This document shows, one piece after another, positions 28,410 to 31,415 of a DNA stretch of 64,000 nt. The stretch is from NCBI RefSeq assembly GCF_988243305.1, contig NZ_OZ547136.1, one strand, 5' to 3'. Position numbers and translations under genes: made by a program. Below the pieces are notes generated by a model. That model ran no database searches. It was given only the letters and a program-made list of their open reading frames with translations, and was not told the DNA's origin. Each line of letters opens with the position of its first letter. Position 1 is the first letter of the stretch.

Positions 28410-29750
28410 TTAACTCAACAGCTGGAAAGCAATCATCCCAACGATGGCACCAACAGTGCCGAGGATGGTTTCCATCATGGTCCAGGTTTTCAGCGTTTCG
28501 GCTTCGGTCGCGCCGGTAAATTTACCGAACAACCAGAAACCGGCGTCGTTAACGTGGCTGACAACAATCGAACCACCGGCGATACAAATCGACAGCGCCG
28601 CCATTTGCGCACCGGAGTAGTTCAGTTGTTCAATAACCGGCATCACCAGTCCCACCGCCGTTAAACAGGCAACGGTGGCAGAACCCTGAATGATACGCAC
28701 CGCCGCAGCCAGCACAAAGCAGGTGATGGCAATCGGCAGGCCCATGCCGGTTAACGCTTCGCCCAGTGCCGGACCTACGCCAGAGTCAACCAGCACCTGT
28801 TTGAACACGCCGCCTGCACCAATCACCAGCAGAATGATCCCCGCCGGTTGCAGCGCGTGACCGCAAATCTCCATCACTTTGTCTTTTGGCATGCCCTGAC
28901 GCATTGCCAGGCCATAAATCGCTACCAGACAAGCAACCAGAATCGCGGTAAACGGATGACCAATAAACTCGAACCATTCGTAAGCGGTAGAGCCTTCTGG
29001 CACAAAACGCGCGGCAATGGTTTTCAGCCCTACCAGCACCAGCGGCAACAGGATCAGCGACAGGCTGAATCCGAAAGATGGCATTTTGCCTTCGCCGAGA
29101 TGCGGTTCGCTGATGTCGTCAGGAATATGCAACTCCACGTAGCGGCTGATGAAATTACCCCACAGCGGCCCGGCAATAATCATTCCCGGAATTGCCGCAC
29201 ACAGGCCAATCAGGATCATCCAGCCAAAGTCGGCGTTCATCTGCGATGCCAGCAGCATTGGCGCTGGCCCCGGTACCAGGAACGCAGCCGCGGCCGCCAC
29301 GCCTGCGAATAATGGGATTACCAGTTTCACCAGGTTCGTACCGGTGTGGCGCGCCATTGAGAAAGCAACGCTAATCAGCAGAACAATCGCCACTTCAAAG
29401 AACAGCGGTAGCGCACAAACCAGCCCCGCAAGGCCGATGGCATAATGTGCTCGGCTGTGACCGAAGGATTTGAGCATTTTGACGGCAATCTGATCGACTG
29501 CGCCAGTTTCATGTAAGATCTTGCCAAACATAGCTCCCAGGGCGACAACCACCGCCAGGAAGCCGAGGGTGCCTCCCATCCCTTTTTCCATCGTCGCTGC
29601 GATTTTATCGAGCGGCATACCGGAAAAAAGGCCAGCCCCCATGGACACCACCATCAAAGCCAGGAAAGCGTGCATACGCGCCTTCATGACTAAAAACAGC
29701 AGCAGTAAAACAGACCCTACTGCTGTTAAAACAAGCGTTAATGTAGTCAC
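28410..29750 (-). CDS. gntU: low-affinity gluconate:H+ symporter GntU
   Basis: 446-aa GntP-family permease ORF. Confidence 0.9.
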   Translation of the reverse strand: MTTLTLVLTAVGSVLLLLFLVMKARMHAFLALMVVSMGAGLFSGMPLDKIAATMEKGMGGTLGFLAVVVALGAMFGKILHETGAVDQIAVKMLKSFGHSRAHYAIGLAGLVCALPLFFEVAIVLLISVAFSMARHTGTNLVKLVIPLFAGVAAAAAFLVPGPAPMLLASQMNADFGWMILIGLCAAIPGMIIAGPLWGNFISRYVELHIPDDISEPHLGEGKMPSFGFSLSLILLPLVLVGLKTIAARFVPEGSTAYEWFEFIGHPFTAILVACLVAIYGLAMRQGMPKDKVMEICGHALQPAGIILLVIGAGGVFKQVLVDSGVGPALGEALTGMGLPIAITCFVLAAAVRIIQGSATVACLTAVGLVMPVIEQLNYSGAQMAALSICIAGGSIVVSHVNDAGFWLFGKFTGATEAETLKTWTMMETILGTVGAIVGMIAFQLLS

Positions 29751-29753
29751 TAC

Positions 29754-30281
29754 TTATTTGCCTTTTTTAATAACCTCAATGGTGCTTGCCACAACACCTT
29801 CCAGCGGTTGATCGATATCCACCACCAGTACATCGGTTTCGTCCGCACCCGGCTCCTGCAGCGTTTCAAACTGCGTCACCAACATTTGGGTTTTAAAGAA
29901 ATGGCCTTTGCGCGCTTTCAGGCGGTTTTCAATCACATCAAAATCGCCTTTCAGGTAGATGAACGAGAGATTCGGATTACCCGCGCGTAGCAGGTCGCGA
30001 TAGTGTTTTTTCAGTGCAGAACAGACAATCAGCGACACTTTATTAGTGCGCTGCATAGCAAACGCGGCGTCGTTCAGCGCCTGCAACCACGGTTTGCGAT
30101 CGTCGTCATTCAGCGGTTCGCCAGACGCCATTTTTTCGATATTGCAGCGCGGATGGAGGAAATCGCCATCAAGAAACGCGGCATGAAGTTGATGCGCCAC
30201 TTCACTGGCGACCGCAGATTTGCCGCTGCCCGATACGCCCATCAAGACGTAAATGTGGTGATCATGGTTAGTCGTGCTCAA
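29754..30281 (-). CDS. gntK: thermoresistant gluconokinase GntK
   Basis: ORF 29754..30302; likely TTG start at 30279-30281 giving 175 aa beginning (M)STTNHDHHIYVLMGVSGSGKS (P-loop). Confidence 0.85.
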   Translation of the reverse strand: MSTTNHDHHIYVLMGVSGSGKSAVASEVAHQLHAAFLDGDFLHPRCNIEKMASGEPLNDDDRKPWLQALNDAAFAMQRTNKVSLIVCSALKKHYRDLLRAGNPNLSFIYLKGDFDVIENRLKARKGHFFKTQMLVTQFETLQEPGADETDVLVVDIDQPLEGVVASTIEVIKKGK

Positions 30282-30419
30282 AGTGGTGCCCCCACAATAC
30301 AAGAATTAAAAATGTTACGGGTAACTGTTATCGGTAACATTGTCCGGCCGGACAATATCAGAAGCAATATCCATCCGTGCCTTAAGTGTATAAGTGTGAG
30401 CTACTTCAAATTTGTGGGC

Positions 30420-31415
30420 TTAAATAGATCCGCCCGGTGACAAGGTGAAACCTAAATCTAACATTTTCGGTGTCACAGATTCGCCACGAATACGCGCCAG
30501 CAGGCGTTCAGCGCCAATACTGCCCATCCGCTCACGCGGCGTCAGTACGCTCGCCAACCGTGGTTCCATCACCTGACCAATGTCATGACCATGGAAACCG
30601 GCAATCGCCATATCGTCAGGAACTTTCAACCCCAGACGCTGGCATTCAAACGCCGCGCCGACCGCCAGGTCATCATTAGTACAGAACACGCCATCCAGCT
30701 GCGGATATTCCCGCCTCGCCTGGCGAATCAGTTCAATACCGGAAGAGTAAGAAGAAGATTGCTCAACCATCACGCTATACGGCACCAGGCCTGCATCCAG
30801 CATCGCCTGTTCGTATCCCTTCTGTTTGATGATAGTACGTTCGTCGAGACGTGCGCCGAGATAGGCAATGTGGCGATGCCCGCGAGCAATAATGGCGGTG
30901 GTCATCTGGCGTGCCGCTTCAAAGTTATCAAAACCGACGGCAATATCGAGGCACGGCGACTTGCTGTCCATCAACTCCACCACCGGAATCCCCGCCACTT
31001 CAATCATCTTTAAGGTGCGCGGCGTGTGGGTACGTTCGGTGAGGATCAGTCCGTCGATATTCCATGAGAGCATTGATTCGAGGCGTTCTTGCTCCATTTC
31101 CGGTTTATAACCGTAGTGGGCCAGCATGGTCTGATAACCGTGCGCGTCGGTGACGCTTTCGATTCCGCGTAATACTTCCGCGAAAACCTGGTTGGTGAGA
31201 GAAGGTAACAGGACGCCAATCGCCCGGCTGGTGGCGTTAGAGAGGATATCGGGCGCGCGATTGGGAATATAACCCAGTTCATCAAGAGCGGCGGCAATCT
31301 TGCCGCGTAGAGCGACGGAAACCTGCTCCGGGTTACGCAAAAAGCGGCTGACCGTCATTTTGGTCACGCCTACACGGTCAGCCACATCCTGAAGTACGGG
31401 TCTTTTCTTTTTCAT
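30420..31415 (-). CDS. gntR: LacI-family gluconate repressor GntR
   Basis: 331-aa ORF with an N-terminal LacI-type HTH. Confidence 0.9.
   Translation of the reverse strand: MKKKRPVLQDVADRVGVTKMTVSRFLRNPEQVSVALRGKIAAALDELGYIPNRAPDILSNATSRAIGVLLPSLTNQVFAEVLRGIESVTDAHGYQTMLAHYGYKPEMEQERLESMLSWNIDGLILTERTHTPRTLKMIEVAGIPVVELMDSKSPCLDIAVGFDNFEAARQMTTAIIARGHRHIAYLGARLDERTIIKQKGYEQAMLDAGLVPYSVMVEQSSSYSSGIELIRQARREYPQLDGVFCTNDDLAVGAAFECQRLGLKVPDDMAIAGFHGHDIGQVMEPRLASVLTPRERMGSIGAERLLARIRGESVTPKMLDLGFTLSPGGSI

What the first reader, a model, noticed from the sequence alone, without database searches (positions are those of the whole stretch)
29754..30281. gntK probably initiates at TTG
The only in-frame ATG would add 7 unrelated residues; the conserved N-terminus STTNHDHHIYV follows a TTG at 30279-30281.
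Basis: inference. Interest (0 to 1): 0.15.

Follow-up and report, generated by a model that had tools for sequence, protein, structure and literature searches.

The report
gntK starts at a TTG codon
The gluconate kinase gene gntK in this E. coli window does begin at a TTG start codon, but reference annotations already record this, so the finding is correct and ordinary.

Summary
The window carries the E. coli gntR-gntK-gntU locus. It is 100% identical to strain Z1323HEC0462 and 97.7% identical to K-12. The interval 29754..30281 (minus strand) is exactly the gntK CDS annotated in RefSeq K-12 (b3437, NP_417894.2) and by PGAP. That CDS has 175 codons and begins with TTG at 30281..30279.

There is no upstream in-frame ATG. 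The codon that would add 7 residues (MYCGGTT) is a second TTG at 30302..30300, and an in-frame TAA lies at 30308..30306. The only nearby in-frame ATG is downstream at codon 14, just before the P-loop.

Evidence for the annotated TTG:
- **Ribosome-binding site.** GGGGG lies 7 nt upstream, with a duplex energy to the 16S rRNA tail of -8.4 kcal/mol. The two rival codons score about +0.5.
- **Other species.** In 80 other Enterobacteriaceae species the aligned codon is TTG (73) or ATG (7).
- **Conservation pattern.** Codon-periodic conservation starts exactly at codon 2, and the upstream region is unconstrained apart from the ribosome-binding site.
- **No alternative.** 36 of 81 sequences have no other possible upstream start.
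- **Within E. coli.** 5417 of 5426 complete genomes keep the exact TTG context, and none has ATG or GTG there.

I could not retrieve direct N-terminal peptide data. Verdict: already known, low interest.

The parts
29754..30281 (-). gntK CDS (thermoresistant gluconokinase): 175 codons plus a TAA stop at 29756..29754
   Evidence: ORF list. The coordinates are identical to the CDS annotated in K-12 b3437/NP_417894.2 and in PGAP WP_000108318.1. NF008583 scores 370.5 bits against a cut-off of 265. The protein has 172/175 residues identical to PDB 1KNQ.
30279..30281 (-). TTG initiation codon of gntK
   Evidence: Direct reading. The aligned codon is TTG in 73 and ATG in 7 of 80 other species. Its second and third bases are invariant. 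The exact TTG context is present in 5417 of 5426 complete E. coli genomes, with no ATG or GTG variants.
30289..30293 (-). Ribosome-binding (Shine-Dalgarno-like) GGGGG, followed by the 7-nt spacer CACCACT (30288..30282)
   Evidence: Duplex energy with the 16S 3' tail is -8.4 kcal/mol, which is in the lowest 4% of 20-nt windows in the locus. G at -10 is invariant, and -11..-8 are the only conserved upstream block across 81 sequences.
30300..30302 (-). Upstream in-frame TTG, a rejected alternative start that would add MYCGGTT.
   Evidence: It has no ribosome-binding site (+0.5 kcal/mol). An in-frame start candidate at -7 codons exists in only 15 of 81 sequences. It is used in a minority of database annotations, for example ACI35719.1.
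30306..30308 (-). In-frame TAA that closes the gntK frame upstream
   Evidence: Direct reading; reported as 'stop@-9'.
30240..30242 (-). First in-frame ATG, which is the internal Met14 codon (a rejected alternative start)
   Evidence: It has no ribosome-binding site (+0.7 kcal/mol). The GntK/IdnK family profile TIGR01313 starts 3 residues upstream of it. Codons 2-13 are conserved as protein with synonymous changes.
30216..30239 (-). Walker A / P-loop codons 15-22 (GVSGSGKS)
   Evidence: Translation.
30312..30340 (-). Two overlapping GntR-operator-like palindromes, ATGTTACCGATAACAG and CAGTTACCCGTAACAT, in the gntK leader/promoter region
   Evidence: Direct reading. The core GTTA-N4-TAAC is present twice in 80/80 related loci. 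Assigning them to GntR rests on my recollection of the published ATGTTA-N4-TAACAT operator consensus and was not tested here.
30395..30410 (-). CRP-like site TTTGAAGTAGCTCACA
   Evidence: Direct reading. The pattern T[GT]TGA-N6-TCACA is present in 77/80 related loci, at a fixed 72-nt offset from the first operator in 71 of them. The function is inferred.
30420..31415 (-). gntR (LacI-family gluconate repressor), the upstream neighbour
28410..29750 (-). gntU (gluconate transporter), with a GTG start at 29750..29748, 3 nt (GTA) after the gntK stop codon

Best explanation
gntK, the thermoresistant gluconokinase gene of the gntR-gntK-gntU locus, is translated from the UUG at window 30281..30279.

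Proposed mechanism:
1. The 30S subunit is positioned by pairing between GGGGG (30293..30289) and the CCUCC of the 16S rRNA 3' tail, 7 nt upstream of the UUG.
2. Initiator fMet-tRNA reads UUG with a first-position mismatch, so the protein starts with Met, not Leu.
3. Because residue 2 is Ser, methionine aminopeptidase should remove the Met. This predicts a mature N-terminus of STTNHDHH...

A UUG start is a normal but minority choice in E. coli. It is expected to give somewhat lower initiation than AUG.

Shown here: the position of the start, its ribosome-binding site, and the comparative support. Inferred from general knowledge: decoding by the initiator tRNA, Met removal, and lower efficiency.
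For: - **Annotation.** The K-12 reference and PGAP both place the CDS start exactly here.
- **Ribosome-binding site.** The duplex energy is -8.4 kcal/mol upstream of this TTG. It is +0.5 for the upstream TTG and +0.7 for the downstream ATG. The mean across 81 sequences at the aligned site is -8.1.
- **Aligned codon.** It is TTG in 73 and ATG in 7 of 80 other Enterobacteriaceae species. A Leu-to-Met swap at exactly this codon is what a start codon would show.
- **Conservation profile.** Positions -30..-1 have high entropy at all three phases, apart from the ribosome-binding core and C at -2. From +3 onward only third positions vary. Codons 2-13 keep S-T-T-N-H-D-H-H through synonymous changes.
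- **No alternative.** 36 of 81 sequences have no in-frame ATG/GTG/TTG between the nearest upstream stop and this codon. In-frame stops lie as close as -7 or -8 codons.
- **Family profile.** NF008583 (gluconokinase equivalog) aligns profile position 1 to this codon.
- **Within E. coli.** 5417 of 5426 complete genomes carry the exact TTG-centred 32-mer, and none carries an ATG or GTG variant.
- **General background.** UUG starts about 3% of E. coli genes. AUG, GUG and UUG initiate at 10-100% of AUG, with Met at the N-terminus (bioRxiv 10.1101/063800).
Against: - No direct N-terminal peptide or initiation-profiling data for GntK could be retrieved. The primary papers are not held. The supplements of two start-site studies that hold supplementary files have no gntK row.
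- The PDB chain that starts MSTTNHDHH is a recombinant construct. It follows the annotation and is not independent evidence.
- A minority of GenBank submissions annotate a 182-aa form, and at least one annotates a 163-aa form.
Confidence: 0.95

Rival explanations
1. Translation starts at the upstream TTG (30302..30300) and yields a 182-aa protein with the extension MYCGGTT. This is what some automatic annotations call by taking the longest ORF.
For: It is the first start-type codon after the in-frame TAA. The 182-aa form is deposited for some O157:H7 genomes, for example ACI35719.1, on 25 contigs.
Against: - It has no ribosome-binding site (+0.5 kcal/mol).
- The 7 extra codons show no coding-type conservation, and the region carries frame-shifting indels between species.
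- A candidate at -7 codons exists in only 15 of 81 sequences. 36 of 81 have no upstream candidate at all.
- The equivalog profile does not cover these residues.
Confidence: 0.02
2. Translation starts at the first in-frame ATG (30242..30240, Met14), and the 13 upstream codons are untranslated leader.
For: ATG is the commonest start codon. At least one deposited annotation (E. albertii EDS93250.1, 163 aa, named 'shikimate kinase') starts there.
Against: - Codons 2-13 are conserved at the protein level, with synonymous third-position changes, in 81 sequences.
- There is no ribosome-binding site (+0.7 kcal/mol).
- The family-wide TIGR01313 profile begins at residue 11, and the equivalog profile at residue 1. 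A Met14 start would therefore cut into the conserved segment leading into the P-loop.
Confidence: 0.01
3. Dual initiation: the main product starts at TTG 30281, but a minor N-terminally extended form from TTG 30302 is also made in Escherichia and some Citrobacter species.
For: The two TTGs are in frame and 21 nt apart. The upstream TTG is retained in Escherichia species and several Citrobacter species.
Against: The arguments are the same as for the upstream TTG alone: there is no ribosome-binding site and no coding constraint on the extension. Retention of that TTG within a few closely related genera is explained by short divergence.
Confidence: 0.02

Closest known systems
E. coli K-12 gntK (b3437; NP_417894.2; UniRef entry GNTK_ECOLI; PDB 1KNQ family of structures)
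   Same: The locus and gene order (yhhW-gntR-gntK-gntU-yhgN) are the same, and so are the CDS boundaries and TTG start. The 5' region from the GntR operators through codon 27 is identical. The protein has 172/175 residues identical.
   Different: There are three substitutions, R46C, E100A and S119N, at positions that also vary among other Enterobacteriaceae. There are two single-base differences further upstream in the gntR-gntK intergenic region.
Other UUG-initiated E. coli genes (about 3% of genes), for example cdsA, whose TTG start was recently re-examined experimentally (PMC11448367, listed)
   Same: A near-cognate UUG start with a ribosome-binding site. Annotation pipelines that prefer ATG or the longest ORF disagree on the start.
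   Different: For gntK I found no experimental start-site test in the material available here. The case rests on comparative and sequence evidence.
IdnK/GntV-type gluconokinase (NF007336, PRK09825), the paralogous second gluconokinase
   Same: It belongs to the same GntK/IdnK subfamily (TIGR01313 scores 238.7 bits here) and has the same P-loop core.
   Different: The window protein scores 182.1 bits against the IdnK equivalog, below its cut-off of 304. It is therefore GntK, not IdnK. The STTNHDHH N-terminal tail is specific to the GntK equivalog profile.

Membership tests
Gluconokinase GntK (NCBIfam NF008583 equivalog; GntK/IdnK subfamily TIGR01313) | Whole-protein score above the curated cut-offs | tested here: met
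   NF008583 scores 370.5 bits against a cut-off of 265. TIGR01313 scores 238.7 bits against 113.75.
Gluconokinase GntK (NCBIfam NF008583 equivalog; GntK/IdnK subfamily TIGR01313) | Walker A P-loop GxxGxGK[ST] near the N-terminus | tested here: met
   GVSGSGKS at residues 15-22.
Gluconokinase GntK (NCBIfam NF008583 equivalog; GntK/IdnK subfamily TIGR01313) | Near-identity to the structurally solved E. coli enzyme | tested here: met
   1KNQ chain A: E = 6e-113, residues 1-175 aligned to ORF residues 8-182, with 3 differences.
Gluconokinase GntK (NCBIfam NF008583 equivalog; GntK/IdnK subfamily TIGR01313) | Genomic context gntR-gntK-gntU (the GntI system) | tested here: met
   The ORFs and the annotation of matching records agree.
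Gluconokinase GntK (NCBIfam NF008583 equivalog; GntK/IdnK subfamily TIGR01313) | ATP-dependent phosphorylation of D-gluconate | not testable with these tools
   This needs an enzyme assay. It is inferred from 98% identity to the characterised K-12 enzyme.
UUG-initiated bacterial coding sequence | The UUG lies at the 5' boundary of coding-type (3-periodic) conservation | tested here: met
   The entropy profile and codon tables of 81 sequences show this.
UUG-initiated bacterial coding sequence | A ribosome-binding (Shine-Dalgarno) sequence 5-9 nt upstream | tested here: met
   GGGGG with a 7-nt spacer, -8.4 kcal/mol. It is conserved across the 81 sequences at -5.6 to -11.8 kcal/mol.
UUG-initiated bacterial coding sequence | Orthologues leave no alternative start, or carry ATG at the homologous codon | tested here: met
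   36 of 81 sequences have no upstream candidate. 7 of 80 species have ATG at the aligned codon.
UUG-initiated bacterial coding sequence | Direct N-terminal peptide or initiation-complex footprint | not testable with these tools
   The primary papers are not held. gntK is absent from the two supplement sets that could be searched. The other two papers have no supplementary files held.

The most novel reading that the evidence does not exclude
The weak UUG start may be held in place by selection as an expression-tuning device, traded off against ribosome-binding strength.

In favour:
- TTG is fixed in 5417 of 5426 E. coli genomes.
- It changed only twice (to ATG) across 81 sequences, while four-fold degenerate sites changed about 16 times on average.
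- The ATG-bearing lineages have weaker ribosome-binding sites (-6.0 versus -8.3 kcal/mol).

Against:
- If only transversions are counted (TTG to ATG or GTG are both transversions), 23% of four-fold sites changed as little.
- The start-codon/binding-site contrast rests on about two independent events.
Probability: 0.25. Interest if true: 0.2.

Novelty: already known. Interest (0 to 1): 0.04.

Why it matters
It matters only for annotation quality. Public databases hold three versions of this protein:
- 175 aa from the TTG start, which is dominant and which I judge correct;
- 182 aa from the upstream TTG;
- 163 aa from the internal ATG, in one case misnamed 'shikimate kinase'.

The comparative evidence here shows which version is right and why the other two arise, through longest-ORF and ATG-preferring gene callers. 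No new biology follows from it.

Tried and rejected
- **Primary literature.** I tried to read Tong et al. 1996 (J Bacteriol), Izu et al. 1996 (FEBS Lett 394:14, pmid 8925917) and the Peekhaus & Conway 1998 review. None is held. From memory, Izu et al. purified the enzyme and sequenced its N-terminus. I could not verify this and do not count it as evidence.
- **Genome-wide start-site data.** The TetRP (PMC4909307) and TRAINSPOTTER (PMC13245402) supplements have no gntK or b3437 entry. The Ribo-RET preprint and the eLife anti-Shine-Dalgarno paper have no supplements held. gntK is GntR-repressed without gluconate, so absence from such data is expected and uninformative.
- **Full-text searches.** Searches for gntK with start-codon terms found nothing relevant to E. 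coli.
- **Promoter scan.** No sigma-70-like site was found on the gntK strand at the tool's threshold. I therefore could not use a transcription start site to exclude the upstream TTG.
- **Selection on TTG.** I tested whether TTG is conserved beyond neutral expectation. It is clearly more conserved than four-fold sites overall (2 versus a mean of 15.7 steps). It is not more conserved than transversions alone (23% of sites do as well). I make no firm claim of selection.
- **R46C substitution.** I considered whether it was noteworthy. Position 46 is S, C or R across genera, so it is ordinary.

Full report
**What is there.** The window region 28410..31415 (minus strand) encodes gntR (30420..31415), gntK (29754..30281) and gntU (28410..29750). 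A 751-nt query spanning gntK and its upstream region matches 5424 of 5426 complete E. coli genomes. It is 100% identical to strain Z1323HEC0462 and 97.7% identical to K-12 MG1655. In both records the annotated gntK CDS maps exactly onto window 29754..30281: b3437/NP_417894.2 in K-12 and WP_000108318.1 in the PGAP-annotated strain. The 5' region from the operators through codon 27 is base-for-base identical to K-12.

**Checking the observation.** Read on the minus strand, the sequence is TAA(30308..30306) TTC TTG(30302..30300) TAT TGT GGG GGC ACC ACT TTG(30281..30279) AGC ACG ACT AAC CAT GAT CAC CAC ATT TAC GTC TTG ATG(30242..30240) GGC.
- The TTG at 30279..30281 and the following STTNHDHHIYV are confirmed.
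No in-frame ATG lies upstream.
- The codon that would add seven residues (MYCGGTT) is another TTG, and the frame is closed two codons above it.
- The only nearby in-frame ATG is downstream: codon 14, the residue before the P-loop GVSGSGKS.

**Which start is used.** Four independent computations agree.
- **Ribosome-binding site.** GGGGG (30293..30289) sits 7 nt before the annotated TTG. Its duplex energy with the 16S 3' tail is -8.4 kcal/mol, in the lowest 4% of windows in the locus. The upstream TTG scores +0.5 and the Met14 ATG scores +0.7.
- **Aligned codon in other species.** I fetched the orthologous locus from 80 other Enterobacteriaceae species. The aligned codon is TTG in 73. It is ATG in 7: five Buttiauxella, Trabulsiella and Yokenella.
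- **Conservation boundary.** Anchored at this codon, positions -30..-1 are highly variable in all three phases. The exceptions are the ribosome-binding core (G at -10 is invariant) and C at -2. From codon 2 onward only third positions vary. Codons 2-13 keep S-T-T-N-(H)-D-H-H-(I/V)-Y-V-L through many synonymous changes. These codons are therefore translated, which excludes the Met14 start.
- **No alternative upstream.** In 36 of 81 sequences there is no in-frame ATG, GTG or TTG between the nearest upstream stop and the aligned start, and stops lie as close as -7 or -8 codons. Where alternatives exist, they sit at inconsistent distances.

The gluconokinase equivalog profile NF008583 aligns its first position to this codon. 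The broader GntK/IdnK profile TIGR01313 begins at residue 11, upstream of Met14. Within E. coli, 5417 of 5426 complete genomes carry the exact 32-mer centred on TTG. None carries the same context with ATG or GTG.

**Mechanism.** The start position and its ribosome-binding site are shown above. The rest is inferred from established knowledge.
- UUG is read by initiator fMet-tRNA, so the protein begins with Met.
- With Ser at position 2, methionine aminopeptidase is expected to remove that Met. This predicts a mature N-terminus of STTNHDHH.
- UUG starts about 3% of E. coli genes. In reporter measurements the three canonical starts AUG, GUG and UUG initiate at 10-100% of the AUG level, with Met at the N-terminus (bioRxiv 10.1101/063800).

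**What is missing.** I found no direct N-terminal evidence.
- The primary gntK papers are not in the held library.
- gntK does not appear in the searchable supplements of two start-site studies, and two other studies have no supplements held.
- The PDB chain 1KNQ starts MSTTNHDHH, but it is a recombinant construct that follows the annotation.
- I recall that Izu et al. 1996 sequenced the N-terminus of the purified enzyme. That is a lead from memory, not a result obtained here.

**Annotation heterogeneity.** One protein cluster of 2888 members contains three forms:
- the 175-aa form, on at least 1000 contigs, named GNTK_ECOLI in UniRef;
- a 182-aa form that starts at the upstream TTG, for example ACI35719.1 from O157:H7 EC4115, on 25 contigs;
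- a 163-aa form that starts at Met14, from E. albertii TW07627 and named 'shikimate kinase'.

These look like products of longest-ORF and ATG-preferring gene callers.

**Is the TTG itself under selection?** On a neighbour-joining tree of the 81 gntK sequences, the first base of the start codon changed twice. Four-fold degenerate sites changed 15.7 times on average, and only 2% of them changed as little. The ATG-bearing species have weaker ribosome-binding sites, -6.0 versus -8.3 kcal/mol. This contrast represents only about two independent events. Compensatory tuning of start codon and ribosome-binding site is possible but not demonstrated.

**Verdict.** It is ordinary and of low interest.

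Noticed in passing
window 30312..30340 (-): Two overlapping palindromes, ATGTTACCGATAACAG and CAGTTACCCGTAACAT, lie 30-60 nt upstream of the gntK start. The core GTTA-N4-TAAC occurs twice in all 80 related loci. From memory they match the GntR operator consensus. The distance from the second palindrome to the start codon varies from 20 to more than 80 nt between genera.
   Followed up: partly
window 30395..30410 (-): A CRP-like site, TTTGAAGTAGCTCACA, lies in the gntR-gntK intergenic region. It is conserved in 77 of 80 loci, at a fixed 72-nt offset from the first operator in 71 of them. The simple promoter scan found no sigma-70 site on this strand, which fits an activator-dependent promoter.
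   Followed up: partly
window 29700..29725 (-): A terminator-like hairpin followed by a T-run (CAGCAGTAGGGTCTGTTTTACTGCTG CTGTTTTTAG) lies inside the first ~17 codons of gntU. A strong local fold (MFE <= -10 kcal/mol) plus a T-run is retained in 77 of 81 loci, with some paired changes. Conservation is confounded by the coding sequence (TAVGSVLLLLFLV). It could attenuate gntU relative to gntK.
   Followed up: partly
window 29748..29756 (-): gntU also uses a non-ATG start. In E. coli a GTG follows the gntK TAA after 3 nt (GTA). Among the nine loci I inspected, other genera show a GTG that overlaps the gntK stop (TAGTG) or a TTG. This suggests translational coupling of gntK and gntU.
   Followed up: partly
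loci L019, L042, L043, L056, L061, L063, L078 (position 1501): The seven species with ATG instead of TTG at the gntK start all have weaker ribosome-binding sites (GGAG or GGGAG, -5.8 to -6.5 kcal/mol) than the TTG species (mean -8.3). This is only about two independent evolutionary events.
   Followed up: partly
window 29754..30281 (-), codons 46, 100, 119: The window protein differs from K-12 GntK by R46C, E100A and S119N. All three positions vary among Enterobacteriaceae (position 46 is mostly S or C), so this is ordinary polymorphism.
   Followed up: yes
protein cluster (P0009, P0003): Public databases hold mis-started versions of this gene. One is a 163-aa form from the internal ATG, named 'shikimate kinase' (E. 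albertii TW07627). The other is a 182-aa form from the upstream TTG (several O157:H7 submissions).
   Followed up: yes
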